Assembly (NCBI GenBank): GCA_964624795.1
Contig: CAZUZS010000016.1
Coordinates: 6,855 to 70,854 of the forward strand
Direction of reading: 5' to 3'
Origin: an uncultured Calditrichaceae bacterium
GTDB taxonomy: Bacteria; Calditrichota; Calditrichia; RBG-13-44-9
Length of the DNA: 64,000 nt
Part shown: in pieces, positions 3,629-62,055 of the stretch
How the letters are laid out: the number at the start of each line of letters is the position of its first letter
Numbering within the stretch: the first letter of the stretch is position 1
Notes under the pieces: model-generated
Told to the model about the DNA's origin: nothing
The model's input: the letters and a program-made list of their open reading frames with translations, nothing else
Database searches by the model: none
Program-made: the position numbers and the translations under genes

Positions 3629-3642
3629 GAGCGCTAACCGGT

Positions 3643-18991: not shown

Positions 18992-19537
18992 TCGAGCGCT
19001 GACTGACTATTTTGAATCCGCCGAAAATTCTTCTCTAATTTTCTCGCAGCCCGGTTTTGGCCATTAAAATCCATTCGCCTTAACCGGTGATTTGGAATAC
19101 GCTCACCATTACGGAATATCATTAAATCGCTCCTGCCGAACGATGTGAGTGAAAATCGTCCTAAACATGTTCGGCAACTTTGTCGTCTTGTCAGGCGCTT
19201 AGAAATAATCGGCCTCATTCTGCAAAATTGCTGGCACAATAAAATGGTTGGATTAGAAGAATTCGCTCCTTTATTAAGCTCTGAATACCCCGACCGCCGG
19301 CATCTCGAATAATCCTGGCCATGCCATTTGGTATGGAAATTGCGCATTTTAAAACAGGGATTTGATGTTGAAGGGAAATAACATGATGTTTGAATTTGAA
19401 AATGGATTTTCTGTAAAGGGATTGCACATGAATTATGTTACGCCTTTCCCTACCGATCCATTCGAGAAACACTGCGCACAAATGCCAGAGAAGGGATTCA
19501 TTAGTAAGAAATGAAGTTTAACATGGAGGAGCCAAAA

Positions 19538-37475: not shown

Positions 37476-37745
37476 CGTTTCCTCAGTTTTGCTTAAACAA
37501 TAAAATATATCAAAATGAAGGGATAATGAAGGCTGACAAGCGGAAAAGCCTGTTTCAAAAATGTTTGTTGAAAAGATGATTCCCATAGAGATAGCGGGCC
37601 AGGATACCAGCCCCGGAGGATGGTAGCGGAATATCTATGTTGGCCACAGCCAGTGGAGAGAATTGAATAAATTTGTTCATGAAGCCGCACATCCGACTTC
37701 AATGAGGCCGGCGTGTTAGTCCCCGCACAGGTATAAAACCCAAAA

Positions 37746-37768
37746 GCCGGCCCTCAATTCGGGCCGGC
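37746..37768 (-). terminator. Intrinsic terminator downstream of the radical SAM pair
   Basis: GCCGGCCC-GAATTGA-GGGCCGGC followed by TTTTGGGTTTT on the minus strand. Confidence 0.7.
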
Positions 37769-37902
37769 CAGAGCGATGTTCTACATATCGAAAATTTTAT
37801 AGAAAGGCTTTCCTGCCAAACATCGTGAAGCGAAATGATAGACGCCCTCAAGTCCTGATAGTATGAGTATCCCGTTGTTCAACGGGCCGTTTTTTCAGCG
37901 GA

Positions 37903-39354
37903 CTAGTGCTTAACACGATGCGCAAAGCCATCATTCCACATGGGATCCAGAAGCTTGCCGATTTTGTTATCGTAGTCGGTTAATTTTTCAAAATACTCCG
38001 GATCTTCAATTGCCCGAGCCGCATCTGGGTCCATGGGTTTGGCCTCGAAACGCTTGATAGTCTTGTGAGCAAATTTATAATGGTCGCGGATGGGGCACGG
38101 TCGGAACAGATTTTTCACATCATGCCCATTTTTTCTATTAGTATAAGCATCTTGCCAGGAGCGTATGGATTTAAAATATTTTGATTTAATCACGGAAGTG
38201 AGGTTGTCGCCACTTTCATAAAGATCATAAATATTTGCGATATGGTAAGGAAAAAATACGCATGGCGCCACATTGCCATTCCAGTCAATGTAAAAGTAAC
38301 CGCCGGAGCGCGCTGCTCCAATGCAGCCGAGCGACATGGGGCCGCCATTCCAGAAATCGATCAGGAATAAATTTTTATTGTATATCATTTCCAATTCCTG
38401 TTCCAGCATCCATCGCCGCTGCTCGGGGGTTACCATCATATCGATGGTAAAGCTCCGGCCAATGGGCATGTATTGGAAAATCCACCCGTATATGGCCCCC
38501 TTCTGGTTGAAATAGTAGTCCATAAAATCCTCGGAGAGGACCGTTTCGGCATTGTCTTTGGTTGCCGTTACCGATATACCAAATGGCACACCTTCGGCCC
38601 GCAGGTTGTCCATTGCTTCCTGGATTTTGCGATAAACGCCCTTGCCGCGCCTGTAATCCGTTTCTTTTTCCCATCCCTCAACTGATATGGCTGGGGTGAG
38701 ATTGCCAACCTCAGCCATTCTTTTGGCCATATCTCTGTCGATTAGCGTTGAGTTGGTGTACATCATAAAATAGTTGTCATTATTGGTTTTCAGGATGTCA
38801 AACAGGTCTTTTCCATCACTGCTGTACATCAAAGGCTCACCGCCGGAAATGACAGTAAAATGGGATCCCCAAATCTGCCGTTTTTCGTCGATAATTTTTT
38901 GAAAAATATTATAGGACAAGGTGTTATCATTTTTTACAGAACTGGCGGCATAGCAACCCTTGCAAGCCAAATTGCATTTCTTGGTGGGGCTTATTGTCAA
39001 GAAAGAAGGCGGGTTGAATCCGAATTCTTCCCGAAAAGGTTGTTGGCGTTCATGTTCGCCCAAAATTACTTTTCCAATAAAATTCTTAATAATGTTCTTT
39101 CTTACCTGCGGAGAAATCCTGCCATCGGCTAGCGCATTGTTCACTGTGTGAAGCAGGTTCGTTAGCGCCCGGTAGCGCATTTCCTGAACTTTTACCGGGA
39201 GATCCTCCTCATTTTCGACGAGGAAAAAATTGTGGAATCCCCGCTCTCCTTTTTTTAATGCCCACTGCCGAAATGCCTGCGACCGCACAGCAATGTCCAA
39301 AACTCCGGTTGACATCGATTGCCACAAGCTGCTGAAATCCAAGGACTGTTTCAT
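37903..39354 (-). CDS. Radical SAM protein with SPASM/twitch-type C-terminus (possibly Mss-like)
   Basis: CNLACKGC, SGGEPL and YTN motifs; DFWN...CIG...YIDWNGNVAPC...RPCPIRD auxiliary-cluster region. Confidence 0.9.
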   Translation of the reverse strand: MKQSLDFSSLWQSMSTGVLDIAVRSQAFRQWALKKGERGFHNFFLVENEEDLPVKVQEMRYRALTNLLHTVNNALADGRISPQVRKNIIKNFIGKVILGEHERQQPFREEFGFNPPSFLTISPTKKCNLACKGCYAASSVKNDNTLSYNIFQKIIDEKRQIWGSHFTVISGGEPLMYSSDGKDLFDILKTNNDNYFMMYTNSTLIDRDMAKRMAEVGNLTPAISVEGWEKETDYRRGKGVYRKIQEAMDNLRAEGVPFGISVTATKDNAETVLSEDFMDYYFNQKGAIYGWIFQYMPIGRSFTIDMMVTPEQRRWMLEQELEMIYNKNLFLIDFWNGGPMSLGCIGAARSGGYFYIDWNGNVAPCVFFPYHIANIYDLYESGDNLTSVIKSKYFKSIRSWQDAYTNRKNGHDVKNLFRPCPIRDHYKFAHKTIKRFEAKPMDPDAARAIEDPEYFEKLTDYDNKIGKLLDPMWNDGFAHRVKH

Positions 39355-39373
39355 TATAACCTCCCAATTTGGT

Positions 39374-40762
39374 TTATGATTTACTATGATTGATTAGCCT
39401 GGAAATAAAAACAATGGTGCGAATATAATCGACGAGTTTTTTGATCTGGGTCGGCCTGATTACTACCTCCTTAAGCGCTTTTATAATGTTGGAGAGTCTC
39501 ATATAGTATCGCCTATAAGCCGTCCTTACCAACCTTTCCAAATGGTTGACCTGAAAGTTGGGATTTTTAAACACCAGGTGCAGGCCGTCGTACAGATCCC
39601 AGTCCCGGGTTGTTAGTTGTTGAGATTTATCCAGCTGCTGAAAAAGACGAGAGCCAGGGTAAGGAGTGAGCAATGAGAATTGACATGTTTCCGGCTTTAG
39701 TCTTATCGCAAGTCTTATTGTTTTCTTTACCATTTTGGAATTCTCATGCAGCTCCCCAAGTATGAAGCTACCATAAATTCTTATATTGTTTTCTCTTAAT
39801 AATTTGACTGCCTGCTCCTGTTGCTCCAACGTGATCCGCTTTTGATAATTATTGAGGATATCCTGGTCAGCGCTTTCCAGGCCCAGGAAAACCGTGCTGG
39901 CGCCGGCATCGGCCATTTTTTTGACCATTTCCGGATGCCTTACCAGCGTATCGACCCTTGAAAAGCACCACCACCGGATATCCCATTTCCGGGAAATAAC
40001 TTCATCGCAAAAATCAATGGTGCGGCGGTAATTCAGTGTGAAATTATCATCAATAAAAATAAAGGAGGAATGACCATTCCGAAGAAGATAATCCAATTCG
40101 GAGAAAACCGAGTCCAGTGACCGGGTCCTCCATTTCAGGCCCGCCAGTCTGCTGCTAGCGCAAAAATAGCAATCGTAGGGGCAGCCGCGGCTGGTTACTA
40201 TGGTCGCCATTCTTCGGCCTTCGAAAGTGGACAGGTAATGATCTGCTTCAAACAATTCTCTCTTGGGAATGGGGAGCTCATCAAGATTTTTGATGAGTTC
40301 TGCTGGTTCGTTACGATGCAGTAATCCGTTAGGTTTATACGCAAGTCCTTTTATTCTGCTCAAGTCGCCCCCATGTTCCAGCATGTCGACTAGATTGACC
40401 AGAGTATGCTCTCCTTCGCCTTTGATAACAAAATCGGCCGCTCCTTTTGTAAAGGGCTCCTCGTCCAAGAACGACGTATGGTAACCTCCGAAAACTACTT
40501 TGGCGCCTTCGGACCTCGCTTTCTGACCGATTTGAACTGCAGAATTAAAACGAGGCGTATCGCTAGAAATACCGACCAGATCAAAATCCTTGAATTTGAT
40601 TTTCTTTTCATCAATTGATTCTGTTTGATAATCTGTGACAGATACCGAGTGTCCGGCTTGTTCAAGCATGGCTGCCAGATATCCGATACCAAGTGGCATC
40701 AGATTCAGGCCGACCTCGCTATAATAATTTTTAGTGGGTGGATCGATTAAAAGTACGCGCAT
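39374..40762 (-). CDS. Cobalamin-binding radical SAM protein (class B methyltransferase-like)
   Basis: N-terminal B12 domain (PLGIGYLAA...GGYHTS...GEGE); TSRGCPYDCYFC, DDNF, GLES and TPYPGS motifs. Confidence 0.9.
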   Translation of the reverse strand: MRVLLIDPPTKNYYSEVGLNLMPLGIGYLAAMLEQAGHSVSVTDYQTESIDEKKIKFKDFDLVGISSDTPRFNSAVQIGQKARSEGAKVVFGGYHTSFLDEEPFTKGAADFVIKGEGEHTLVNLVDMLEHGGDLSRIKGLAYKPNGLLHRNEPAELIKNLDELPIPKRELFEADHYLSTFEGRRMATIVTSRGCPYDCYFCASSRLAGLKWRTRSLDSVFSELDYLLRNGHSSFIFIDDNFTLNYRRTIDFCDEVISRKWDIRWWCFSRVDTLVRHPEMVKKMADAGASTVFLGLESADQDILNNYQKRITLEQQEQAVKLLRENNIRIYGSFILGELHENSKMVKKTIRLAIRLKPETCQFSLLTPYPGSRLFQQLDKSQQLTTRDWDLYDGLHLVFKNPNFQVNHLERLVRTAYRRYYMRLSNIIKALKEVVIRPTQIKKLVDYIRTIVFISRLINHSKS

Positions 40763-41225
40763 TTGGGCCTCCCGTATTTTACTTCTACCCCAAGCTCCTG
40801 ATTAATGGAATTCTATCTGACCAGTGGTTTTTCTCCTCATTTTAATCCGAACTGAAATATGCGAACTTAACATGGCCGCTGCAAATCTGCTTAAAGCGGG
40901 ATTCCAATCAGACATTTAAGCAATAAATTCCGGTCATGACAGTACGGAAATCGCCAAGCGATTAATATCCGAAAAACTAATTCTCGCTTTCGGTTTTAAG
41001 AATTACCTCCGGCGCCCTCACCGGTACAAGAAAATCTATAACGGATCTATAGGAATAAATAGTATTTACGGGAAGGTTACTGATTGTAGAATCGTATTCA
41101 TTGAAATATTGGGTAATTAAATGTTTTTCTTTTCTTTTTGAATAACACATTGGTCAAATCTCTATTATGCTACTTACCGCTATGGGCGGCAAGTGAGGTT
41201 GCAATATTCAAATTCATTTCAACTC

Positions 41226-41750
41226 TTAATATGCAATTCCCGGCGAGCAAATAACCCATCCCTCTTTGAGCGAAGAAATCGGTTTTGATATTTCGCCCGG
41301 TTTAACTTTTAAGCCGGTAGAATCAGCTATAAACTGCCCATTTTGTGTAATGTTGAAAAAATTGCTTTTGGCAACGATATTAGAGTCGTTTACGGTAATT
41401 GTGATCGGTTCAGTTAGTTTCTCTATGGGTTCGTTCGTCCCAAGGTTTGTAGCGCGAAATGCGAAAGCAAGTATGGGCAAATTTCCGGCCGGTGCTTTTG
41501 CCCTGAAATTAGCCGGATCCCCGGTTAAAATCTCAAATTTAACCGGCGAATTGAATTCACCTTCGGGAAACTGAATACGATAGGGTGAAATGTTCAAGGT
41601 GTCGGCTTGCGTTGCAGGTATTTGCCTGGCGGTGAAAAGTGTAGGATAGCCGGTTTCTTCCAGGCTTGGAACAGCCCCCTTTTTTGAACTACAGGAATAA
41701 TTTAGTATGAAAAAAGAAATGACGGAAATAATGAGGACCGCTTTTCCCAT
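41226..41750 (-). CDS. Hypothetical lipoprotein
   Basis: Lipobox-like NYSC after a hydrophobic stretch; RBS GGAGGAG; no family recognised. Confidence 0.65.
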   Translation of the reverse strand: MGKAVLIISVISFFILNYSCSSKKGAVPSLEETGYPTLFTARQIPATQADTLNISPYRIQFPEGEFNSPVKFEILTGDPANFRAKAPAGNLPILAFAFRATNLGTNEPIEKLTEPITITVNDSNIVAKSNFFNITQNGQFIADSTGLKVKPGEISKPISSLKEGWVICSPGIAY

Positions 41751-42127
41751 CTCCTCCTCCCTTTCTTTGATGGTTAAATGCGCGGTTTCAAAACTACATA
41801 TTTTCTACTAAGCTATATTTAAAAATCAACCAAACATTCTTTCTGTTCCTCAAAAATTGATCTCAAAAAACCTTATCGCTTAAAATTGAGCAAATCATTT
41901 TGATCTCCCCTGAAGCGAAATTGACCTTTAAGCTGCAAAACGTTAATTTCTCAAAATGAAGATTTGATGAAATTTGCTTTCATCTCCAAGCTATTGACCC
42001 CCAAGCATCATCTTCCTTGAATTTAGCAGTTCGAATTCTCTGCCATGATCTTTTCAAAATCGCTATCCTTGAAAATTTGACCAATCTATGATCAATAAAT
42101 CACAGTTCACTTGTTTGTAAACATAAA

Positions 42128-43072
42128 TTAGAAGACACTTATATGCATATACTTTTTGGGATTCTTCTTAATATCTTCCACCAATTCATTCAGTGAATTT
42201 GTAACATTTAAGAGATTCTGGTACAGCTCCTTATTATTGACCAGCTCACCAGCAGTTCCGCGTGTTGTTTCCAATCTTGACAAAAGCGCGTCGGTTCGGG
42301 CCGAAATAGCAAGCAACTTACCATAAAGGGTTGTGTCAGAAATCAACCGACCGAACATACCTTCGCCCCGCCGGATCTTGCTGCTAATTTCATTCATATT
42401 GTAAAAAGTCTGATTAAAGTTATGAAACATTGCTGTATCCTGCAAAAACCTGCCGGCGTTTCCTTCTCCCTGCGATATACGATTGGTAATATATTTCACC
42501 TCCGAAATCACACTCCTAAGATCATCCCCCATTTTCTGATCTCGCAACAACATGCCCAAAGTTCCCTTGCCGTTCATAACATCCCGGGCAATCGTATTCA
42601 GTTGTTCCACGGCCTGTGAGGCTTGCCGGGCAATATCCTCAAGATTTATTGAGCTTCTGGTTGCGACAAATGAATTCGGAACCAAAGTGGTGTCAGTTGC
42701 TCTCCCCAGGGAAATATCGACGTATTTGTTCCCCAAAACTCCCATTGTCTTTATGCTTGCAAAAGAGGTTTTTTTGATTAGGTCCGCATACTTATCTTTA
42801 ATTTTCAATTGGGTCACAATACCCGGTTCTCCCTTCCTTTGTACAATTTTTAGATACCCGACAACGCCGGCTTTCATCCCGGCAATGGTAACGAGAGCAC
42901 CAGGTTCCAATCCCTGCACATTGGGTAAAAAGATATAATAGGTTTCCGTCGGACTAAATAACTCTTGGTAGGTACCAACTGTGTAAAAAATAAAAAGTAT
43001 CAGAAACAGGGCCAAAACAATAAGAGAGACAACACCGACTTTCACCGTTCGGTTTTTATTTGAAATCTCCAT
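42128..43072 (-). CDS. mlaD: MlaD/MCE family protein
   Basis: N-terminal TM helix; VQGLEPGALVTIAG..G.V and GVLGNKYVDISLG MCE motifs; helical tail with GTLGMLL repeats. Confidence 0.88.
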   Translation of the reverse strand: MEISNKNRTVKVGVVSLIVLALFLILFIFYTVGTYQELFSPTETYYIFLPNVQGLEPGALVTIAGMKAGVVGYLKIVQRKGEPGIVTQLKIKDKYADLIKKTSFASIKTMGVLGNKYVDISLGRATDTTLVPNSFVATRSSINLEDIARQASQAVEQLNTIARDVMNGKGTLGMLLRDQKMGDDLRSVISEVKYITNRISQGEGNAGRFLQDTAMFHNFNQTFYNMNEISSKIRRGEGMFGRLISDTTLYGKLLAISARTDALLSRLETTRGTAGELVNNKELYQNLLNVTNSLNELVEDIKKNPKKYMHISVF

Positions 43073-43811
43073 TTGCACCCTCAATTAATTTTTTACTGAT
43101 AACGACCTCATTTTCATCTTCAAATTTGTCAAATATCGCCATATCTACCTTCCCATCGTAAACAATTGTACCGGATTTCAACATCAGCAAGCGATCTCCG
43201 ATTGTATTAAAATGTTGAATGATGTGTGTAACAATAAGGGCAGTGTGATTCAGACTTTTTTGAAGAGCATAAATTAAATCCACCACCCTTTTGGATGTCA
43301 CCGGATCCAGCCCAGCAGTGGGTTCGTCGTAAAGCAAAATTTGAGGATTAGCAGCAATAGCCCGGGCAATGGCTACCCGCTTTTTCATTCCACCGCTCAG
43401 TTCTGCCGGATAATAGTTCAAGAAATTTTCCATTCCCAATAGGCTCATAATTTCCTCCACCCGCTGCTTTACTTTTTTGTCGGAGAGCCTTAGATTCTCT
43501 CTGAGAAAAAAACCGACGTTTTCCCCAATTGTGAGAGAATCGAACAATGCGCCGTCCTGAAAGACCAACCCGCACTTAAACCGGATATTATTCATTTCGT
43601 TTTCAGAAATATCCGAAATATCTTTCTCAAAGACCTTTATTGTGCCGCTTGTTGGCCAGATTAATCGCAAAATCAATTTTAATATGGTGGTCTTACCGGC
43701 TCCGCTGCTGCCCACCAATAAAACAGTTTCATTTTGGTTCAGCTTAAAGGTCAAATCGTCCAGCACCTTACGCTGGTTTAGTATTTTTGTAACATTCCGG
43801 AACTCGATCAA
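43056..43811 (-). CDS. mlaF: MlaF-type ABC ATP-binding protein
   Basis: GSSGAGKT, FQDGALFDSL, LSGGMKKRV and LYDEPTAGLDP motifs. Confidence 0.9.
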   Translation of the reverse strand: MIEFRNVTKILNQRKVLDDLTFKLNQNETVLLVGSSGAGKTTILKLILRLIWPTSGTIKVFEKDISDISENEMNNIRFKCGLVFQDGALFDSLTIGENVGFFLRENLRLSDKKVKQRVEEIMSLLGMENFLNYYPAELSGGMKKRVAIARAIAANPQILLYDEPTAGLDPVTSKRVVDLIYALQKSLNHTALIVTHIIQHFNTIGDRLLMLKSGTIVYDGKVDMAIFDKFEDENEVVISKKLIEGANGDFK

Positions 43812-44614
43812 TGCCTCACCCCTATTACAGAGAGCAGAATTTTGGTTAGGAGGAAATCCAATATCAGGATGCCTATTGAGTTAGTCACCACCGTTTTAGT
43901 TGTGGATTGCCCCAACTCCTCTGCCCCGCCATGAGTTGTATACCCTAAATAGGCGCTATTTATGCCAATGAAAAGGCCATAGAAAATGGGCTTAATAATG
44001 CCCACCAACAAATCCCCAACAAACAAGACATCACGGGCAGCCAACCAGAAAAATTTCGGGTCCACCCCTTGCCACAAAACAACAGCAAACCAGCCGGCGA
44101 TAATTCCCATCACATCGGCAATAATTGTTAAAGGCGACATCACCAGTAGTGAAGCAAAAACACGAGGGACAATCAGACGTTTGATTGGATCGGTGCCGAA
44201 AGCTCGCAATGCATCAATTTGTTCGGTAAGCACCATATTTCCGATTTCCGAAGAAATCCGGGCACCGGTTCTGCCAGCCAGTATAAGCCCGACAACGATA
44301 GGGCCAATTTCCCGGATGATGGCCACTGAGATAATGCTGCCCATGGCAGTTTTAGCGCCGAACGGGGCCAACTCGGTTGCCCATTCCAGGGCTAGCGCCA
44401 TGCTCACAAATACTGAAGAAAAGATAACGAGGGGCAGGGCTTGATTTCCCAAAACATAAATTTGCTTGAAGGTCTCGCCGGGATATTTGAAAATATAATG
44501 AGAATTCAGAATGGATTTTGAAAAGAAATTAATCCAATTATAAAAGCCGAGGCCCCTCCGGAAGAGAAAGCTCTTCCGATATTTCAGGGTGATTTCTTTT
44601 GCAAACTTGGCCAT
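43808..44614 (-). CDS. mlaE: MlaE-type ABC permease
   Basis: REIGP, AGRTG..ISSEIG.M..TEQIDAL, PRV and GGAEELGQSTT..VV motifs. Confidence 0.9.
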   Translation of the reverse strand: MAKFAKEITLKYRKSFLFRRGLGFYNWINFFSKSILNSHYIFKYPGETFKQIYVLGNQALPLVIFSSVFVSMALALEWATELAPFGAKTAMGSIISVAIIREIGPIVVGLILAGRTGARISSEIGNMVLTEQIDALRAFGTDPIKRLIVPRVFASLLVMSPLTIIADVMGIIAGWFAVVLWQGVDPKFFWLAARDVLFVGDLLVGIIKPIFYGLFIGINSAYLGYTTHGGAEELGQSTTKTVVTNSIGILILDFLLTKILLSVIGVRH

Positions 44615-44856: not shown

Positions 44857-45375
44857 TTATTGTTTCTTTCCCAACCAGGGCACATTTGCATAAATTGGAA
44901 TTCCCTTCGAGATCCACTGGTAATATGTCAGAATAGCTAACATCTCCTTGCTGTCTGGAGCCATAGGCTTGCCTTTCAGGGCACCCTTGAGACATGCATT
45001 GGTCTGCATTACCAGATCCACCGTCCCATTCGCTCTCTTTTTAAATTTCGGAAATACCGCCGCTACTCCTACCAGCGGAAGTGCCTGTTCATCCATTCCG
45101 GCGTTTTTATGGCAGGTGCTACAATTCATATCATTTCCCACGTATTCTTTCGCGTACTCCTGGGTATTTTGGACAATATTGTAGCCCATCATCACCATAT
45201 CTTTGATTTCCGCGGGTGCATCCTGCGGCTTTGGTGGACTAAATTTTAGCGTGCTTTCTGTTGCTTGATCCTGTGCTTTCCCGCCTGAAAAAAGGAATAA
45301 AGAAGATAACAGTATTCCCATTATGAGTATGACTCTCGCCGAAAAAGGATTAAAAAACGATAGCAGCTTTTTCAT
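44857..45375 (-). CDS. Monoheme c-type cytochrome resembling the N-terminal (heme 1) domain of TsdA
   Basis: Signal peptide; YVGNDMNCSTCH; downstream Cys in QTNACLKGALKG; DSKEMLAILTYYQWISKG; ends after PWLG. Confidence 0.75.
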   Translation of the reverse strand: MKKLLSFFNPFSARVILIMGILLSSLFLFSGGKAQDQATESTLKFSPPKPQDAPAEIKDMVMMGYNIVQNTQEYAKEYVGNDMNCSTCHKNAGMDEQALPLVGVAAVFPKFKKRANGTVDLVMQTNACLKGALKGKPMAPDSKEMLAILTYYQWISKGIPIYANVPWLGKKQ

Positions 45376-45540
45376 GTTGCCTCCTTAGTGATTTGGTTGG
45401 TTCTAAACCTGTAAATCGTTTGTTACCAAAAACAATCGGATTTTCTCAGATTGCACTTAGTGTATGTTAAAAGTGGTTTTACATCCTTCCGCCATTTTTG
45501 CTCGCTCGATGCACGGTATTCAAAAAAAGGGCAATTTTTG

Positions 45541-46086
45541 TCAGTCCGTCATAAGGGCATAGCCCTTTAACTGGAATGTGGGCAATACAACTTGAGCCGA
45601 AAGCGCCACTGTTATATCGGCATTTACCCAATTTTCCTGGTAATTGAAATCGGCAAGCGACTGCCCGCAGACAAAAAGCTGAACTCCGGCCTTTTTCAAC
45701 TGACTGATAATATTCGTATTGGGATTATCCTTGCCGGTTTTTTCTTTGTAAATATCATTATTCAGAACAATTGAAGTGGCATCGGAATGGATTATAACTA
45801 CCAGCTTCATCTGGGCCGGCTGTACTCCGGCCGTTGCGAATACATTGATAAATCTTGCTACATGCCAGAGTGCCGCATTAATGCCATCTGAGTTTTCTGT
45901 CGATTTCTTTACATCAAAAATCACCCTGTATTCAAGATCTTTATCGGGCTGGATTGCTGCTTCAGGCAATGGATGCGCCTTTCCGTAATCCTTAATTACC
46001 GGGTGCACCCATTCCTGGGATGATGAATTACTTGCGCCAGCCGAAAGAAGCAAAACCACTATGAATAAAAGCCACGGATTTCTCAT
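45541..46086 (-). CDS. Periplasmic DsrE/DsrF-like family protein
   Basis: Signal peptide; VIFDV, LVVIIHS and AGVQLFVCGQS with the conserved Cys. Start at MRNPW behind GGAGG (track start 46146). Confidence 0.8.
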   Translation of the reverse strand: MRNPWLLFIVVLLLSAGASNSSSQEWVHPVIKDYGKAHPLPEAAIQPDKDLEYRVIFDVKKSTENSDGINAALWHVARFINVFATAGVQPAQMKLVVIIHSDATSIVLNNDIYKEKTGKDNPNTNIISQLKKAGVQLFVCGQSLADFNYQENWVNADITVALSAQVVLPTFQLKGYALMTD

Positions 46087-46190
46087 AAAAAAGCCTCCTC
46101 CCAATATTGTTTTGCGGGCGGGCAAATTGCGCCACATATAACCCATTCCAGGAGAAATATTGTTGGCAGCAATTACCCGGTCCGGCTTAT

Positions 46191-46688
46191 TTATTTGGTT
46201 TTTTCCTGCGAAGCATACTCCCGCAAGTATTCCAGTATCGCCCTCGCCTGCTCTTCCGATATTCCCAGGCTGGGCATGGGAATGTGATACTGAGAAATCA
46301 TTTTTTTGACATTCTCATCTTTTTGCTCCATTTCCGAAGTGTTTATTATCATGTTCATGATAAACTCCGGAGTTCTCTGGTTCACCACGTCGCCCAGCGG
46401 TGGCCCTACCACTTTGTTGTTCATGCTGTGGCAGGAAGTGCAGGTGCTGTTGAACACGCGTTTCCCTTCTGCTGCGAGCTTGGGATCGATCGGCCCCAAT
46501 TTCAGTTCCTTAACCGGGCCGAATCCCTTGTCCTCGCTTTGCGCACTATCTTTTTGTGGATCCTGAGCTTTCTTTTGGATCGTCTTGCTGGTGTTTTCTG
46601 TGGCAGCCTTTTGATCCTGGTCTGCCTGGCCGAAAACAGTTGCAGAAAACAATCCAATGAGTATGACTACAACAAATGAATATTTCAT
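46191..46688 (-). CDS. Class I monoheme cytochrome c
   Basis: Signal peptide; CTSCH; VGPPL; probable Met ligand in YHIPMP. Confidence 0.88.
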   Translation of the reverse strand: MKYSFVVVILIGLFSATVFGQADQDQKAATENTSKTIQKKAQDPQKDSAQSEDKGFGPVKELKLGPIDPKLAAEGKRVFNSTCTSCHSMNNKVVGPPLGDVVNQRTPEFIMNMIINTSEMEQKDENVKKMISQYHIPMPSLGISEEQARAILEYLREYASQEKTK

Positions 46689-46803: not shown

Positions 46804-47574
46804 TCACTGCGCTACGACCAACTGGTTGTTCACACTTATAGCATCAGTTCCGAATTGCACAAGGTCTGCAGCGTGTCCTCTGGCAAACTCCGAAGTGACC
46901 ACACCTTCCAGAATAACTCTCCCATTGTCCACAATAATATGAATGGGCGGGCTGGTGTTATCTGCATAGTTCTCGAATGCCGGGTCGTTGTAGATCAGGC
47001 GTGCCGCCTGTGCCCGGATCTGGTCGTCGGTGCTGGAAATTGGAAGAACCGTGATGTCGTTGATCACCTTTTTCACTCCGGCAGCTTTTGCCGCCTCCTG
47101 CCCAAATTCCGGTTTGTGCCAGGGAACATAGACCCAGCCTTTCAACGTGACATTTCCCGAATCGGCCTCCACCACAACCCAATCGAAGATGCTGTAAAAA
47201 ATATGTTTTTGAAATTCCTTTATAACGTTATCAGCTACCTGTTGGTTTGTGGCGTTCGGATTCTTAACCACCAAATTATCCACAATCTTATACGATTCCT
47301 CGACCTGGTGGGCATCTTTCTCTGCTTGCTGCTTTTGTTCCAGGGTACCAACAGTACCGTTGAGGGTGATTGTGTTATTGGAAACCGTTACTTGCACATT
47401 GTCATTTTCGAGTATGTGCTGCATCCTTAGTTTGTGTTCGAGAACGATTTGTATTGCTTTGTTTGTTGATTGCTCGTTCTCTTGCGCCGACAACCCGGAT
47501 GGGTATGAGAACAGCCCCAAACCAATTGCTGCCAGAAATAGCGCAAATACGCCGTTCCGAATTTTGCTGGTCAT
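46804..47574 (-). CDS. Periplasmic BON-domain protein (three BON repeats), copy 1
   Basis: Signal peptide; three V.V..G.VTL.G.V repeats. Confidence 0.85.
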   Translation of the reverse strand: MTSKIRNGVFALFLAAIGLGLFSYPSGLSAQENEQSTNKAIQIVLEHKLRMQHILENDNVQVTVSNNTITLNGTVGTLEQKQQAEKDAHQVEESYKIVDNLVVKNPNATNQQVADNVIKEFQKHIFYSIFDWVVVEADSGNVTLKGWVYVPWHKPEFGQEAAKAAGVKKVINDITVLPISSTDDQIRAQAARLIYNDPAFENYADNTSPPIHIIVDNGRVILEGVVTSEFARGHAADLVQFGTDAISVNNQLVVAQ

Positions 47575-47673: not shown

Positions 47674-48447
47674 TTATTTATTCAATATTTTGAGCTCGTT
47701 GTCCACCGAATATGCGTCGGTGTGCAAGCTGATGAGATTTTCCGCCAGATCACTGTCAGACTGCGACTTAACGACTCCTTCGAGCACCACATTTCCGTCC
47801 CGGACGATTATATGAATGGACGGAACCAGTTCGTAGGCGTAAGGCTCGAACACCGGGTTGTCGTAGATTAATCTCGCCGCATGGATTCTTATTTGATCGT
47901 CGAAGCTCGATTTTGGCAGAACGATGAGACTATCGGCCACGGCTCTCACTCCCGGTACTTTTTGCGCCTGACTGACAAATTCGCTTTTGTGCCAGGGCTC
48001 GTAAACCCACCCGTTCAGGGTCACATTACCGTTGTCTGAAGAAACTGTCACCCAATCGAAGATGCTGTAGAAAACCCTGCGCTGCAAAGCAGCGACAACA
48101 CTATCGGTGAGCTGCTGGTTGGTCATATTCATCGCTTTGATTACGAGCTGATTGTTAACACGGTAACTTTCTTCGGCCGCGGCCGCATCTCTTCCGGCCT
48201 GAATTTTTGCCCCAATCGATTGCACTGTTCCCGACAGCGTGATGATCCTGTCTTTCACGGAAACAGTGATATCGTTATTCTTCAATATGCGCTGCTTGCT
48301 CAGTTTATTTTTCACCACACTGATTATGGTATTTGCCGGAAGCTCATTTTCGCCCTGGCTTCTTCCCGATTCGGGAAATGCGAGAATCACCAGAGCGAAA
48401 AAAGCCAATAAATAGCTGACGATTCTTATTTGATATTCTCTTTTCAT
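47674..48447 (-). CDS. Periplasmic BON-domain protein (three BON repeats), copy 2
   Basis: Same layout as copy 1; shares FYSIFDWV, PWHK.EF, DDQIR..AARLIY and IHIIV..G.V.LEGVV. Confidence 0.85.
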   Translation of the reverse strand: MKREYQIRIVSYLLAFFALVILAFPESGRSQGENELPANTIISVVKNKLSKQRILKNNDITVSVKDRIITLSGTVQSIGAKIQAGRDAAAAEESYRVNNQLVIKAMNMTNQQLTDSVVAALQRRVFYSIFDWVTVSSDNGNVTLNGWVYEPWHKSEFVSQAQKVPGVRAVADSLIVLPKSSFDDQIRIHAARLIYDNPVFEPYAYELVPSIHIIVRDGNVVLEGVVKSQSDSDLAENLISLHTDAYSVDNELKILNK

Positions 48448-48615: not shown

Positions 48616-50973
48616 TCAGGCATCCCCCCATTTCCAGTTCTTTATTTCCGGAATATCGTCGTCGTACCGGTCGATATAAGCCTTATGTTCGCTCAATTTT
48701 CGGGTGAACTCATCGATAACAATGCCGGCATGTGAACGCAGCCGCGGCACCCGCTTTAATGCCGCAATGGCCAGGTGGAAGCGGCTGATTTTGTTCAAGA
48801 CCCGCATATCGAACGGGGTCGTCGTCCGGCCTTCCTCTATGTAACCATGAACATGGAAGCGTTGCGGGTTGGCCCGGTGATGCACCAGCTCATGGATGAC
48901 CCTCGGATAACCATGAAATGCAAAAATCACCGGTTTGTCCGTGGTAAAGATCTGTTCGAAGGCGTCCTCATCCAATCCGTGAGGATGGTCCCGATGGGAA
49001 ATAAGTGTAAAAAGATCCACAACATTAATCAGCCGGACTCGCAATTCCGGTAGCTGCTGTCGAAGCAGCCAGGTGGCGGCTACGGATTCTTCAGTTGGTA
49101 CATCGCCAGCGGAAGCCATTATTACATCGGGATTTCCCTCATCATTGCTGCCCCACTCCCACACCGAAACTCCGCGTGCACAGTGTTTTATGGCTTCATT
49201 CATACTCAGATATTGCGGGTTCATCTGTTTTGATGCGACGATGAGGTTCACATAATCCTTGCTTTTCAGGCAGTGATCTGCAACGGAAAGCAGACAGTTC
49301 GCATCCGGTGGCAGGTAAATCCGGGCGACCGAGCTTTTTTTATTCACAATATTGTCGATGAAGCTGGGAACCTGGTGGGTGTAACCGTTGTGATCCTGCC
49401 TCCAAACATGGGAGGTAAGCAGGTAATTCAAAGAAGCAAGCGGATTGCGCCACGGGATTTCCCGGGAAACTTTCAGCCATTTTGCATACTGGTTGAGCAT
49501 GGAATCGATTATGGGGATGAAAGCCTCATAGCAGGCAAACAATCCATGGCGCCCGGTAAGTAAATATCCTTCCAGCCAGCCTTCGCAGGTGTGTTCGCTC
49601 AGGATTTCCATGACCCGTCCATCGCGTGCAAGGAATTCGTCGGTTTCCACCAGCGGCCACATAAATGCTCTCTGTGTCGCTTCAAAAATATGCTCCATAC
49701 GGTTGGATGTGGTTTCATCGGGACAGAAAAAGCGGAAGTTCTTTTCCTCTTCATTGTTTCGAAACACATCACGGATGAACTTGCCCAGCTCCCGTGTGCC
49801 CTCTACGCGTATCGCCGCCGGCCCCCGCACATTCAGTGCGTAATCTTTGAAGTCGGGCAGTTGCAGCGGCTTCAGAATCCGGCCGCCGTTGGCGTGCGGA
49901 TTCATGCCGATGCGCCGCTCACCCTCCGGGCAAACGTCAATAATCTCCTGTGAAGGCTGTCCGTCTGAATCAAATAGTTGATGCGGTTTGTAGCTGCGCA
50001 GCCAGGATTCCAGCGCCTCAAGGTGTTTGGGATTGTGCGCCGGATCAGGGATCGGGATCTGGTGGGAATGAAATGTTCCTTCAACTGGTTTTCCGTCCAG
50101 AGTTTTGGGACCGGTCCATCCTTTGGGGGTGCGGAGAATGATCATCGGCCACATGGGACGATCCGGCATCTTTCCTGAGCGGGCTTTGGTCTGCAGCGCC
50201 CTGATCTCGGAATATGCCCAATCCATGGTTTTCCACATCGCCGGATGAACGGCATCAGGATCTTCGCTGGTAACGATTCGCACCTGGTAGCCGTAGCCGC
50301 TAAACATGTTCTCCAATTCCTCGTCCGTCATCCGGCCCATAAGGGCGGGGCCTGATAGTTTGTAACCGTTTAGATGAAGAATTGGGAGAACGGCGCCGGA
50401 ACTTGCCGGGTTCAGAAATTTCCCCGAATGCCACGCGGCAGCCAGCGGACCGGTTTCCGCTTCCCCGTCTCCCACAATGCAGGCGACAATTAAATCCGGA
50501 TTATCCAGCGCCGCCCCGAAGGCATGGCTCAGGCTGTAGCCCAGCTCTCCGCCCTCATGGATCATACCCGGGGTTCCGGGAAAGAGATGGCTGGGCATGC
50601 CGGTTGGAGTTGAAAATTGCCGGACGAATCGCGTAAGCCCATCCAAACCGAATTTTAAATCCGGGTAAAATTCACCAAGGGTGCCCTCAAGATAGAGGTT
50701 GGACAGTATTCCCGGCGCACCATGCCCGGGACCTACGATCAGCATTACGGAGGCGTCTTCATCCTGAATCAATCGGTTTAAATGGGTGTAAATCAGATTT
50801 AGGCCGGGCTGTGTTCCCCAGTGCCCAAGCAGTCGCGGCTTGATGTGTTCCGGTTTCAGCGGGGCCAGCAGCAACGGATTGTCGGTAAGGTAAAGCTGTG
50901 CCGCGCCTAGGTAATTTGTTGCGTTCCAGTAGCGATGAAGCTTCTGTAAACGCTCTTGTGTAATTTCTTTCAT
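48616..50973 (-). CDS. xfp: Xylulose-5-P/fructose-6-P phosphoketolase
   Basis: LLGHWGT, GPGHG, HEGGELGY, GDGEAETG, PDET.SNR, LSEH and WRQDHNGYTHQ motifs. Start at MKEITQ behind GGAGG; the track extension to 51474 overlaps the ATPase gene and is spurious. Confidence 0.93.
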   Translation of the reverse strand: MKEITQERLQKLHRYWNATNYLGAAQLYLTDNPLLLAPLKPEHIKPRLLGHWGTQPGLNLIYTHLNRLIQDEDASVMLIVGPGHGAPGILSNLYLEGTLGEFYPDLKFGLDGLTRFVRQFSTPTGMPSHLFPGTPGMIHEGGELGYSLSHAFGAALDNPDLIVACIVGDGEAETGPLAAAWHSGKFLNPASSGAVLPILHLNGYKLSGPALMGRMTDEELENMFSGYGYQVRIVTSEDPDAVHPAMWKTMDWAYSEIRALQTKARSGKMPDRPMWPMIILRTPKGWTGPKTLDGKPVEGTFHSHQIPIPDPAHNPKHLEALESWLRSYKPHQLFDSDGQPSQEIIDVCPEGERRIGMNPHANGGRILKPLQLPDFKDYALNVRGPAAIRVEGTRELGKFIRDVFRNNEEEKNFRFFCPDETTSNRMEHIFEATQRAFMWPLVETDEFLARDGRVMEILSEHTCEGWLEGYLLTGRHGLFACYEAFIPIIDSMLNQYAKWLKVSREIPWRNPLASLNYLLTSHVWRQDHNGYTHQVPSFIDNIVNKKSSVARIYLPPDANCLLSVADHCLKSKDYVNLIVASKQMNPQYLSMNEAIKHCARGVSVWEWGSNDEGNPDVIMASAGDVPTEESVAATWLLRQQLPELRVRLINVVDLFTLISHRDHPHGLDEDAFEQIFTTDKPVIFAFHGYPRVIHELVHHRANPQRFHVHGYIEEGRTTTPFDMRVLNKISRFHLAIAALKRVPRLRSHAGIVIDEFTRKLSEHKAYIDRYDDDIPEIKNWKWGDA

Positions 50974-51014
50974 AATTTCCTCCTTCTCCACTAACTCTGA
51001 ATTCCTCTCCCGCT

Positions 51015-59538: not shown

Positions 59539-60384
59539 TCAAACATCTTTGTAGGTAAGGACTCGTCCCCACAGGCTTTTGGTGCCCCATAATCCGGAGC
59601 GAAGACATTCCAATTGTACTATCTGACTGTGATCGACAAAGAGATTGACCTCCGGCCCATAATTTTTTATGTACCACGCGAAAACATCCGGATCAGCGGC
59701 TTCGAACATCGGTTTTTCCAGCCCCAGCGAGTTGATGATTTTTGCTACAACACCAGTGCGCCATTCATTCACATTTTCAGTAATACCTTCCGATTCAATC
59801 ATAATCATGTAGGCCCCTGCGTCGATAAAGCGCTTGGCCTGCAAGATAGCCCATTCCGGATCGCTGGTGCCTTCCGCTTCCAACTCTGCGACGGTGGTTG
59901 CGCCACCCGCACCGAATTGAATACCGACTTCCGGTTTCGCTTTCAGGCCAGCCTTCTGCACTTTCTCTATCAATCGCAGCCAGTCATCTGTCGGGATGGA
60001 AATAAATCCGCTTGAAATTTCAATGATGTCGAAGCCGATTTCCTTGCATTCGCGGATATAATAATCCACGGCTTCTGCACCCTGGGTTAGCACATGTTCA
60101 ATGAATCCGCCGGTGGAAACCAGAACTTCATGCTGATGGCACAATTCAAGTAGCTCTTTCACAGCCTTGCGAGGCATCAGACTAAAAGAGCCGCCGGCAA
60201 ATTTGAGCACGTCTACATAATTGCCCATTGTTTCCAGAACATCCTGCAAATACCGTTTCCCCATAACAGAATAGTATGGTCCCCGAATCTCTGTAACACC
60301 GTTTTTGCGGGGCTTGGAACTGCGTTTATTTATGCTCAATTTGCTAAATGCTCTTTCTTCCAGGTCAGTCTTAACTTGCTCCAT
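59539..60384 (-). CDS. Phosphosulfolactate synthase (ComA) family protein, HSA32-like subgroup
   Basis: KPRKNGVTEIRGPYY, VDVLKFAGGS, GFDIIEIS, KAKPEVG, MIESEG and NLFVD motifs. Confidence 0.85.
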   Translation of the reverse strand: MEQVKTDLEERAFSKLSINKRSSKPRKNGVTEIRGPYYSVMGKRYLQDVLETMGNYVDVLKFAGGSFSLMPRKAVKELLELCHQHEVLVSTGGFIEHVLTQGAEAVDYYIRECKEIGFDIIEISSGFISIPTDDWLRLIEKVQKAGLKAKPEVGIQFGAGGATTVAELEAEGTSDPEWAILQAKRFIDAGAYMIMIESEGITENVNEWRTGVVAKIINSLGLEKPMFEAADPDVFAWYIKNYGPEVNLFVDHSQIVQLECLRSGLWGTKSLWGRVLTYKDV

Positions 60385-60405
60385 TTTTTTATACCTCCAT
60401 AAAAT

Positions 60406-61776: not shown

Positions 61777-62055
61777 ACCCCACACTCCCCTTTAAAATGC
61801 TAAAACTTTATTAATGATAAATTTTCTGTATGAAGGAAGGATGAAGAATTCAGGCCGCTGTTTATGCATGAATCGCAAGGTGTCCGCATCAAAATGGGAC
61901 AAAATCCCGGGAGAGGGGTTGTTGGTTCCCAAAGATAAGATGCCGGAAAATTCAAAAGAAGTTGGCCTTCAAGCTCTTCGGCGGTTCACTGACGAGCGCT
62001 AATCCCAATTTTGGAGGCACGATACAGAAGTGTTGTTTCCTGCAAGAAATATCGA

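What the first reader, a model, noticed from the sequence alone, without database searches (positions are those of the whole stretch)
37903..40762. Radical SAM pair possibly making and methylating membrane-spanning lipids
Seen in sequence: a cobalamin-binding radical SAM gene 19 bp upstream of a 483-aa radical SAM/SPASM gene, ending at a shared terminator, with no precursor peptide ORF nearby. Recalled (unverified): the second protein's motifs (PT..CNL.C.GC, SVEG.E.ETD.RRGKG, GW.FQY.PIG, DFWN.G....GCI, RPCP) match a widespread anaerobe family that I believe includes the membrane-spanning lipid synthase Mss of Thermoanaerobacter. Established: class B radical SAM enzymes methylate unactivated carbons (HpnP/HpnR) or form rings in tetraether lipids (GrsA/B). 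Inference: a two-gene chain-coupling plus methylation module for diabolic-acid or brGDGT-like lipids.
Basis: partly seen in the sequence, partly recalled or inferred. Interest (0 to 1): 0.75.

Follow-up and report, generated by a model that had tools for sequence, protein, structure and literature searches.

The report
Membrane-spanning lipid synthase with B12 partner
Two adjacent genes in a probable Calditrichota-like anaerobe encode a relative of the bacterial enzyme that joins two fatty-acid tails into membrane-spanning lipids, plus a conserved, uncharacterised B12-type radical enzyme that most likely modifies the same lipid.

Summary
Two minus-strand genes, a B12-binding radical SAM gene (39374-40762) and a 483-aa radical SAM/SPASM-like gene (37903-39354), lie 19 bp apart. 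Each has a GGGAGG ribosome-binding site, and one terminator-like hairpin follows the pair.

The second protein belongs to the Mss (membrane-spanning lipid synthase) family. It is 36% identical (237 bits, E 5e-77) to Thermotoga maritima TM0824, the protein I take to be the verified Mss Tmari_0825. It shares every family-wide invariant block. It is not Tes or Gms.

The B12 protein fits no curated family; BchE, HpnJ and HpnR all score far below cut-off. All eight homologues of at least 47% identity that I examined sit directly upstream of an Mss homologue, and identities of the two partners co-vary. About 70 of 80 species with an Mss homologue have no B12 radical SAM gene within the flank fetched (up to 7 kb). 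Other B12 radical SAM clades were recruited to mss loci separately.

MlaEFD lipid-transporter genes adjoin the pair in several loci. No precursor peptide is conserved.

The most likely reading is a lipid chain-coupling enzyme plus a tailoring enzyme. Methylation is favoured but unproven; ring formation or desaturation remain open. A preprint figure legend already notes grs homologues in mss clusters.

The parts
39374..40762 (-). Class B (B12-binding domain) radical SAM gene, 462 aa; first gene of the pair; uncharacterised clade
   Evidence: Pfam PF02310 (75 bits) and PF04055 (77 bits). CX3CX2C at C194/C198/C201 is invariant in 32 homologues. No NCBIfam model passes its cut-off: BchE 216 vs 481, HpnJ 198 vs 578, HpnR 175 vs 650. 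AlphaFold model pLDDT 89.6; best PDB folds are AprD4 (TM 0.75), TsrM, MgmA, OxsB, CysS and TokK.
37903..39354 (-). Mss-family radical SAM gene (membrane-spanning lipid synthase homologue), 483 aa; second gene of the pair
   Evidence: 36% identity, 237 bits, E 5e-77 to T. maritima MSB8 TM0824 (AAD35906.1/AGL49750.1). Family-wide invariant blocks and six invariant Cys: C127, C131, C134, C344, C365, C420. More than 4400 homologues at E<=1e-10. Model pLDDT 88.3.
39355..39373 (-). 19-nt intergenic spacer; the GGGAGG ribosome-binding site (39365-39360) lies 5 nt before the Mss start codon
   Evidence: Read directly from the sequence. The gap is also 19 nt in L171. In other loci it ranges from a 23-nt overlap to a 46-nt gap, with 223 nt in L002.
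37735..37769 (-). Terminator-like hairpin (9-bp stem, 8 G-C pairs) followed by a T-rich tail; probable end of the two-gene transcript
   Evidence: Consensus scan and sequence. This is a pattern match only, not proof of termination.
40763..41225 (-). 463-nt upstream non-coding region containing the GGGAGG for the B12 gene (40773-40768); promoter not identified
   Evidence: Sequence. No Rfam match. Sigma-54 consensus matches are at chance level. One weak sigma-70-like site at 41192-41164.
42128..44614 (-). MlaE (43808-44614), MlaF ATPase (43056-43811) and MlaD (42128-43084): a phospholipid-transport ABC system on the same strand just upstream; recurrent neighbour of the pair
   Evidence: Pfam MlaE 228 bits, ABC_tran 127 bits, MlaD 50 bits. 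MlaEFD also follows the pair in L169, overlapping it. It follows Mss plus a B12 radical SAM gene in L021, and MlaD lies 6-8 kb upstream in L002.

Best explanation
This is a two-gene operon for making and tailoring a membrane-spanning lipid in an anaerobic FCB-group (probably Calditrichota) bacterium.

The downstream protein is an Mss-family radical SAM enzyme. By analogy with the verified T. maritima and T. ethanolicus enzymes, it reductively cleaves SAM, abstracts a hydrogen at or next to the omega end of a glycerolipid-bound fatty acyl chain, and forms a C-C bond with the tail of a second chain. The product is a diabolic-acid or iso-diabolic-acid type lipid that spans the membrane.

The upstream protein is a class B radical SAM enzyme (B12-binding domain) that is inherited together with this Mss. 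It acts on an unactivated carbon of the same alkyl chains, either before or after coupling. C-methylation through methylcobalamin is the most likely chemistry.

Shown here: gene structure, family membership of both proteins, conserved synteny, co-variation of the two partners, and the lipid-transport context. Inferred: the substrates, the coupling position, cobalamin use, and the chemistry of the B12 enzyme.
For: 1. Mss membership. The protein is 36-37% identical over 376 aa (237 bits, E 5e-77) to the Thermotoga cluster that contains T. maritima MSB8 TM0824. All reader-recalled motifs are invariant family-wide. Published homologue thresholds (E<=1e-50, identity >=30%, length >=400 aa) are met. 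The phyla in which I find this family match the published Mss list.

2. Tight linkage. Eight of eight examined B12 homologues at >=47% identity sit immediately upstream of an Mss homologue: L171, L001, L168, L008, L172, L169, L002, L170. So do L011, L026 and L070. Gaps run from -23 to +46 nt in most, and flanking genes differ between loci.

3. Co-variation. B12/Mss identities to the window are 66/72, 63/78, 62/65, 60/66, 56/69, 55/67, 50/57, 47/56, 43/51 and 41/43. The linked B12 proteins form one clade in a rough neighbour-joining tree.

4. Independent recruitment. Other class B radical SAM clades lie next to Mss in other lineages: Nitrospirota L009/L010/L013, L021, L019 and L089.

5. Lipid context. 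MlaEFD adjoins the pair in the window, L169 and L021.

6. Precedent. Archaeal lipid radical SAM enzymes pair with B12 radical SAM tailoring enzymes: Gms-Gmm, and Tes with Grs, GDGT methylases and Ted (PMC11214058; bioRxiv 10.1101/2025.10.20.683597; PMC13459092).
Against: - No member of the window's Mss clade (FCB, Spirochaetota, Nitrospirota, candidate phyla) has been tested experimentally. 36% identity allows a shift in substrate or position.
- The mapping of Tmari_0825 to the 482-aa TM0824, rather than to the adjacent 323-aa radical SAM gene, is inferred. It rests on the >=400-aa criterion, the accession and the phyletic pattern; it is not read from the paper's tables.
- The T. ethanolicus Mss could not be compared.
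- Most Mss-bearing genomes lack any nearby B12 radical SAM gene, so the partner is dispensable for coupling.
- Nothing in the sequence separates a methylase from a ring synthase or desaturase.
- The best structural match, AprD4, does not use cobalamin.
- No Ger/PlsA ether-lipid gene is in the window.
- Mla adjacency is seen in only 3-4 loci.
Confidence: 0.55

Rival explanations
1. Same lipid module, but the B12 radical SAM enzyme is not a methylase. It would form cyclopentane rings (GrsA/B-like) or desaturate the chain (Ted-like) in the membrane-spanning lipid.
For: Lipid-acting B12 radical SAM enzymes include ring synthases and a desaturase as well as methylases (PMC13459092; bioRxiv 10.1101/2025.10.20.683597). 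Garcia et al. noted grs homologues in Aerophobetes gene clusters that contain mss. The best NCBIfam scores are to the non-methylases BchE (216 bits) and HpnJ (198 bits), ahead of HpnR (175 bits). brGDGTs with cyclopentane rings exist.
Against: Most characterised class B enzymes are methylases (PMC12931638). All NCBIfam scores are far below cut-off, so their ranking says little. No GrsA/B or Ted sequence was available for comparison.
Confidence: 0.25
2. The window's Mss-like clade performs a different radical reaction on a different hydrophobic substrate, and the B12 enzyme is a step in that unknown pathway. Examples would be a mid-chain cross-link or a non-glycerolipid substrate.
For: Identity to the verified enzyme is only 36%, and the N-terminal ~78 residues do not align. 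No clade member has been tested. The published authors themselves note that Mss homologues do not always coincide with membrane-spanning lipids. Stand-alone genes sit in unrelated contexts.
Against: Length, domain order, all six Cys and every conserved block are shared with the verified enzyme. Lipid-transport genes adjoin the pair. No alternative pathway genes are conserved around it.
Confidence: 0.12
3. The pair matures a ribosomal peptide: a SPASM/twitch radical SAM cross-linker plus a B12 radical SAM C-methyltransferase.
For: This enzyme combination is typical of RiPP clusters. The nearest solved folds for the 483-aa protein are the peptide maturases SuiB, anSME and SkfB. Weak NCBIfam hits to RiPP maturases appear for both proteins.
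Against: No small ORF is conserved in any of the 11 or more related loci. No protease, exporter or RiPP-recognition element is present. The 237-bit match to a verified lipid enzyme compares with <=92 bits to any peptide or cofactor maturase model. The gene stands alone in most genomes.
Confidence: 0.05
4. The adjacency has no functional meaning: two unrelated radical SAM genes that happen to be neighbours.
For: Most Mss homologues have no such neighbour. B12 radical SAM paralogues at 40-44% identity can be unlinked, as in L088.
Against: Eight of eight close B12 homologues are linked, with overlapping or near-abutting reading frames, co-varying divergence and changing flanks.
Confidence: 0.03

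Closest known systems
Mss, membrane-spanning lipid synthase (T. maritima Tmari_0825; T. ethanolicus WP_129545148.1; Sahonero-Canavesi et al. 2022, PMC13159169)
   Same: Same family: 36% identity and 237 bits to the T. maritima protein. The length matches (483 vs 482 aa). Both have the radical SAM CX3CX2C motif plus three further invariant Cys, and all family-wide conserved blocks. The family has already been reported in Calditrichaeota, FCB, Spirochaetes and Nitrospirae.
   Different: It belongs to an untested clade with a diverged N-terminal ~78 aa. It is preceded by a co-inherited B12 radical SAM gene, which the T. maritima locus lacks; that locus has a 323-aa AhbD-like radical SAM gene and a TetR gene instead. 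The coupling position (omega or omega-1) is unknown.
Archaeal Gms-Gmm pair (GMGT synthase plus B12 radical SAM GMGT methylase; Garcia et al. 2024, PMC11214058)
   Same: The logic is the same: a SPASM/twitch-type radical SAM enzyme that makes a C-C bond between lipid chains is encoded next to a B12 radical SAM enzyme that modifies the product. The genes are overlapping or abutting.
   Different: Gms is a close AhbD homologue (36% identity) with a COG4001 N-terminal domain. The window protein scores only 75 bits on the AhbD model and has 3 C-terminal Cys rather than about 7. Gene order is reversed here (B12 first). Only 15 bacterial Gmm homologues were reported, whereas this B12 family has thousands of bacterial relatives.
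GrsA/GrsB GDGT ring synthases, archaeal GDGT methylases and the Ted desaturase (B12 radical SAM lipid-tailoring enzymes)
   Same: They are class B radical SAM enzymes that act on unactivated carbons of membrane-spanning lipid chains. grs homologues were noted in Aerophobetes clusters with mss.
   Different: Those enzymes act on isoprenoid chains of archaeal tetraethers, whereas a fatty-acid-derived chain is expected here.
HpnR/HpnP hopanoid methylases, HpnJ and BchE
   Same: They are the best-scoring curated models for the B12 protein, so they belong to the same broad class B subgroup.
   Different: All scores are far below the family cut-offs. No hopanoid or bacteriochlorophyll genes are in the window.
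Tes / GDGT-MAS (archaeal tetraether synthase, PDB 7TOL)
   Same: It is a radical SAM enzyme that performs the analogous tail-to-tail coupling.
   Different: There is no sequence match at E<=1e-3. The fold match ranks only 46th (TM 0.38), behind generic SPASM enzymes.

Membership tests
Mss (membrane-spanning lipid synthase) | Homology to a verified Mss at the published thresholds: E<=1e-50, identity >=30% (Sci Adv 2022) and length >=400 aa (Garcia et al. preprint) | tested here: met
   36% identity over 376 aa, 237 bits, pairwise E 5e-77 to T. maritima MSB8 TM0824; length 483 aa. By my arithmetic, 237 bits against an nr-sized database still gives about 1e-57. Caveat: equating TM0824 with Tmari_0825 is inferred.
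Mss (membrane-spanning lipid synthase) | Radical SAM CX3CX2C motif plus the conserved family blocks and C-terminal cysteines | tested here: met
   Residues invariant across 20 sequences from Thermotogota, Enterobacterales, Bacillota, Synergistota, Atribacterota, Planctomycetota and the window clade: P123 T124 C127 N128 L129 C131 G133 C134; S224 E226 G227 T232 R235 R236 G237 G239; W291 P297 G299; D333 F334 W335 G338 G343 C344; C365 F367; N415 P419 C420 D424.
Mss (membrane-spanning lipid synthase) | Homology to the second verified enzyme, T. ethanolicus WP_129545148.1, and placement inside the clade bounded by both verified enzymes | not testable with these tools
Bacillota members of the same family exist.
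Mss (membrane-spanning lipid synthase) | Produces diabolic or iso-diabolic acid type diacids | not testable with these tools
   Needs expression or lipidomics.
Tes / GDGT-MAS | Sequence and fold similarity to the archaeal tetraether synthase | tested here: not met
   Absent from PDB sequence hits at E<=1e-3. Foldseek places 7TOL at rank 46 with TM 0.38.
Gms (GMGT synthase) | Close AhbD homologue (about 36% identity) with a COG4001 N-terminal lipid-binding extension | tested here: not met
   The AhbD model TIGR04545 scores 75 bits (cut-off 500) and covers residues 124-308 only. The clade has three, not about seven, conserved C-terminal Cys. COG4001 itself was not tested.
Class B (cobalamin-dependent) radical SAM | N-terminal B12-binding Rossmann domain followed by a radical SAM core with CX3CX2C | tested here: met
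   PF02310 at 75 bits (cut-off 32) and PF04055 at 77 bits. The predicted fold matches TsrM, MgmA, OxsB, CysS and TokK. Cobalamin binding itself is inferred; the top fold match, AprD4, does not bind it.
HpnR / HpnJ / BchE / PhpK equivalogs | Score at or above the NCBIfam curated cut-off | tested here: not met
   BchE 216 vs 481; HpnJ 198 vs 578; HpnR 175 vs 650; PhpK 152 vs 600.
GrsA/GrsB, Gmm, Ted | Placement within the clade of the characterised archaeal enzymes | not testable with these tools
   No reference sequences or models were available. The literature reports only 15 bacterial Gmm homologues at E<=1e-65.
RiPP radical SAM maturase pair | A conserved precursor peptide gene in the cluster | tested here: not met
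   Small ORFs around the pair have no tblastn match in any related locus. Gene calls in 11 loci show no shared short ORF.

The most novel reading that the evidence does not exclude
The Mss-linked B12 radical SAM clade is the first bacterial methylase for membrane-spanning fatty-acid-derived lipids. It would add the extra methyl branches, possibly iteratively, seen in penta- and hexamethylated or overly branched GDGT-type lipids of anoxic waters and sediments. That would give those palaeoclimate proxy lipids a genetic marker and a set of anaerobic candidate producers: Calditrichota, Latescibacterota and related FCB or candidate phyla.
Probability: 0.2. Interest if true: 0.85.

Novelty: new variant of a known kind. 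Interest (0 to 1): 0.6.

Why it matters
Branched tetraether and diabolic-acid lipids underpin widely used temperature and pH proxies. Their degree of methylation and cyclisation carries the signal. Yet no bacterial enzyme that methylates or cyclises these chains has been identified, and the anaerobic producers are unknown.

A B12 radical SAM gene that is co-inherited with an Mss homologue gives a concrete, clonable candidate for such a tailoring step. It also gives a gene-pair marker for screening metagenomes. Separate recruitment of different B12 radical SAM clades to mss loci suggests that chain tailoring of bacterial membrane-spanning lipids is common and diverse, as it is in archaea.

If the pair instead proves inactive on lipids, that would caution against the current practice of calling every Mss homologue a lipid synthase.

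Tried and rejected
- Riboswitch or other RNA in the long 5' region: no Rfam match at E<=1 in 37500-42200. The whole window gives only tRNA-Val.
- Sigma-54 promoter, suggested by sigma-54 regulators upstream of the pair in L002 and L170: 72 matches against 72 expected by chance, and none convincing upstream of the pair.
- Precursor peptide: the 57-aa ORF (40977-41150), the 174-aa lipoprotein and the 257-aa downstream ORF have no counterpart in related loci.
- Tes and Gms membership: rejected.
At 40-44% identity, L088 is unlinked, L089 has Mss upstream and L090 cannot be judged.
- Retrieving T. ethanolicus Mss: two rounds of cluster look-ups reached Bacillota MAGs and Thermosipho/Thermotoga, but not Thermoanaerobacter.
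- Cross-checking my Bacillota accessions against the AEM 2026 supplementary list of Mss homologues: nothing found, and the stored file is truncated.
- Supplements of the Sci Adv and PNAS papers are not held.
- Look-up of the window's own contig failed, so the organism is inferred only from nearest relatives (Calditrichia at 78%) and a T9SS sorting domain.
- I considered that Tmari_0825 might be the adjacent 323-aa radical SAM gene. I rejected this because of the >=400-aa criterion used for Mss homologues and the matching phyletic pattern.
- The neighbour-joining tree is rough and has no support values.
Full report
**Observation**

The window carries two minus-strand ORFs exactly as described. 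One runs 39374..40762 (462 aa) and the other 37903..39354 (483 aa). They are separated by 19 nt. That spacer holds a GGGAGG site 5 nt before the second start codon. A second GGGAGG precedes the first gene.

Pfam finds B12-binding plus Radical_SAM in the upstream protein. It finds Radical_SAM, Fer4_12 and a marginal SPASM hit in the downstream protein. One strong terminator-like hairpin (9-bp stem, 8 G-C pairs, T-rich tail) lies at 37769-37745 on the minus strand, about 134 nt past the stop codon. Nothing comparable lies between the genes.

**What the 483-aa protein is**

No NCBIfam model reaches its cut-off. The best hits are NirJ2 (92 bits), mycofactocin maturase (79 bits) and AhbD (75 bits), and they cover only the radical SAM core. 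The protein has more than 4400 relatives at E<=1e-10 in the word-indexed search. The top 120 are all at least 52% identical and come from Spirochaetota, Calditrichota and Nitrospirota MAGs. The exhaustive search finds 375 cluster representatives at E<=1e-30.

One representative is a Thermosipho protein. Searching with it reached the Thermotoga cluster. That cluster contains the T. maritima MSB8 protein AAD35906.1/AGL49750.1, annotated 'AstB/chuR-related'. The window protein aligns to it over 376 residues at 36% identity, 237 bits, E 5e-77.

Gene order in the T. maritima genome places this 482-aa protein at TM0824. The order runs Fe-ADH, pheS, pheT, TetR, the 482-aa radical SAM gene, then a 323-aa radical SAM gene. 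This placement takes the Fe-ADH to be TM0820, which I recall from memory.

Sahonero-Canavesi et al. showed that T. maritima Tmari_0825 and T. ethanolicus WP_129545148.1 form C32-C34 diacids when expressed anaerobically in E. coli (PMC13159169).

**Is TM0824 the verified Mss?**

I infer that Tmari_0825 is the 482-aa protein and not its 323-aa neighbour. There are three reasons:
- Garcia et al. define Mss homologues by E<=1e-50 and a length of at least 400 aa.
- The accession AGL49750.1 comes from the record I believe carries the Tmari locus tags (CP004077; recalled, not checked here).
- The phyla in which I find this family match the published list of Mss-bearing phyla. They are Thermotogota, Bacillota, Synergistota, gamma- and deltaproteobacteria, Atribacterota, Spirochaetota, Calditrichota, Nitrospirota, Elusimicrobiota, Armatimonadota, Chloroflexota, PVC and many candidate phyla.

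The 323-aa neighbour is only 25% identical to the window protein (78 bits) and is a generic AhbD/NirJ-like enzyme.

**Family features**

I aligned 20 sequences spanning the window clade, Thermotogota, Enterobacterales, Bacillota, Synergistota, Atribacterota and Planctomycetota. So are six cysteines: C127, C131, C134, C344, C365 and C420.

The protein is not Tes. There is no PDB sequence hit to GDGT-MAS, and Foldseek ranks 7TOL 46th at TM 0.38, behind SuiB, anSME and SkfB. It is not Gms either. Gms is 36% identical to AhbD and carries a COG4001 extension.

**What the 462-aa protein is**

It has the class B architecture and an invariant CX3CX2C motif. Its confident model (pLDDT 89.6) superposes on AprD4, TsrM, MgmA, OxsB, CysS and TokK. 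The best curated models are BchE (216 bits against a cut-off of 481), HpnJ (198 against 578) and HpnR (175 against 650). It therefore belongs to none of them.

Identity among its homologues falls quickly, from 66% to 47% within the first 30 hits. A plateau of hundreds of paralogues at 40-46% follows.

**Linkage of the two genes**

Every B12 homologue of at least 47% identity that I examined lies immediately upstream of an Mss homologue. These are L171 (the same 19-nt gap), L001 and L169 (23-nt overlaps), L168, L008, L172, L170 and L002. L011 (Calditrichaceae, B12 gene frameshifted), L026 (Latescibacterota) and L070 (Planctomycetota) show the same order.

Flanking genes differ from locus to locus, so the pair is the only conserved unit. 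Identities of the two partners to the window fall together, from 66/72 down to 41/43. In a rough neighbour-joining tree the upstream-linked B12 proteins form one clade.

Linkage is not universal. Of 80 species-representative loci with an Mss homologue, about 70 have no B12 radical SAM gene within the flank fetched (up to 7 kb). Among the loci read in detail, a Spirochaetota locus, a Nitrospiraceae locus and one unnamed MAG have stand-alone genes.

Other, distantly related class B radical SAM genes lie downstream of Mss in Nitrospirota (L009, L010, L013), a Bacteroidota MAG (L021), L019 and L089. They fall in separate parts of the tree. Class B enzymes therefore seem to have been recruited to mss loci several times.

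**Context**

The window is ordinary chromosomal DNA of an FCB-type bacterium. It has a T9SS sorting domain, OEP/HlyD efflux genes and a composition without anomaly around the pair. The closest Mss relative (78%) is from a Calditrichia MAG.

MlaE, MlaF and MlaD lie directly upstream on the same strand, followed by a 174-aa lipoprotein. In L169 the pair runs straight into MlaEFD with overlapping frames. In L021 the order is Mss, B12 radical SAM, MlaEFD. In L002 MlaD lies 6-8 kb upstream.

No Ger/PlsA-type gene is in the window. No small ORF near the pair is conserved elsewhere. No riboswitch or other Rfam element is present. Sigma-54 consensus hits are at chance level.

**Interpretation**

The best-supported reading is a two-gene lipid module. 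The Mss homologue couples the tails of two glycerolipid-bound fatty acyl chains by radical chemistry, giving a membrane-spanning diacid. The co-inherited class B enzyme modifies an unactivated carbon of the same chains.

Methylation is favoured because it is the commonest class B chemistry and has lipid precedents in HpnP/R, Gmm and the GDGT methylases. Ring synthases (GrsA/B) and a desaturase (Ted) are also B12 radical SAM lipid enzymes. I could not compare sequences with any of them, so the chemistry stays open.

Less likely rivals are:
- a functional shift in this untested Mss clade;
- a peptide-maturation pair, disfavoured by the lack of any conserved precursor and by the 237-bit match to a lipid enzyme;
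- meaningless adjacency, disfavoured by synteny and co-variation.

**Comparison with the literature**

Mss homologues in Calditrichaeota, FCB, Spirochaetes and Nitrospirae are already reported, so the synthase itself is a new member of a known family.

I found no paper that describes a B12 radical SAM gene co-inherited with mss, or a bacterial methylase or cyclase for these lipids. One preprint figure legend does note 'grs homologs' in Aerophobetes clusters containing mss and gms. A 2026 study searched Bacillota for Gmm homologues. The idea is therefore in the air, but this clade and its strict linkage have not been described. I rate the finding a new variant of a known kind.

**Caveats**

- The Tmari_0825 mapping is inferred.
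- The T. ethanolicus enzyme was not compared.
- Cobalamin binding, substrates and products are all predictions.
- The tree has no support values.

Noticed in passing
L173:3948-4919 and L173:6465-7037 (T. maritima MSB8, CP007013.1): The T. maritima Mss gene (TM0824) is flanked by a 323-aa AhbD/NirJ-like radical SAM/SPASM gene directly upstream and a TetR regulator directly downstream. The small radical SAM gene resembles Gms without its N-terminal domain and might also act on the lipid.
   Followed up: partly
proteins P0478-P0511: Mss-family proteins about 47% identical to the Thermosipho enzyme occur in Enterobacterales and Vibrionaceae: Klebsiella, Salmonella, E. coli, an Escherichia albertii plasmid, Edwardsiella, Sodalis and Photobacterium. 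These organisms are not known for membrane-spanning lipids.
   Followed up: no
L002:1964-6265 and L170:148-4234: In two loci the B12-Mss pair is preceded by a HisKA_7TM sensor kinase, a sigma-54-dependent response regulator and a small SPW-family protein. This suggests regulated expression. The window lacks these genes.
   Followed up: partly
L011:5359-6818: In the Calditrichaceae MAG the B12 radical SAM gene upstream of Mss is split into two overlapping frames. This is either a frameshift pseudogene or an assembly error.
   Followed up: no
window 46804-47574 and 47674-48447 (-): Two tandem proteins, each with three BON domains (a putative phospholipid-binding domain), lie a few kb upstream of the MlaEFD genes on the same strand.
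   Followed up: no
window 1357-4977 (-): Lysine 2,3-aminomutase (3643-4977), a sodium:solute symporter (2177-3628) and a GNAT acetyltransferase (1357-2250) lie together. This looks like an AblA/AblB-type N-acetyl-beta-lysine osmolyte cluster.
   Followed up: no
window 44857-46688 (-): A SoxA/TsdA-type cytochrome c, a DsrE-family protein and a further c-type cytochrome lie between the Mla and BON genes. This hints at thiosulfate or sulfur metabolism.
   Followed up: no
window 48616-51474 and 51015-53519 (-): The mechanically called phosphoketolase ORF (952 aa) overlaps the P-type ATPase ORF by about 460 nt. The XFP domain starts only at residue 171, so the true phosphoketolase start is probably further downstream.
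   Followed up: no
window 19511-22060 (+): An 849-aa ORF has no Pfam match at E<=1e-4.
   Followed up: no
window 59539-61785 (-): Phosphosulfolactate synthase (ComA family) lies next to an MmgE/PrpD-family protein. This is an unusual pairing outside methanogens and may relate to sulfonate metabolism.
   Followed up: no
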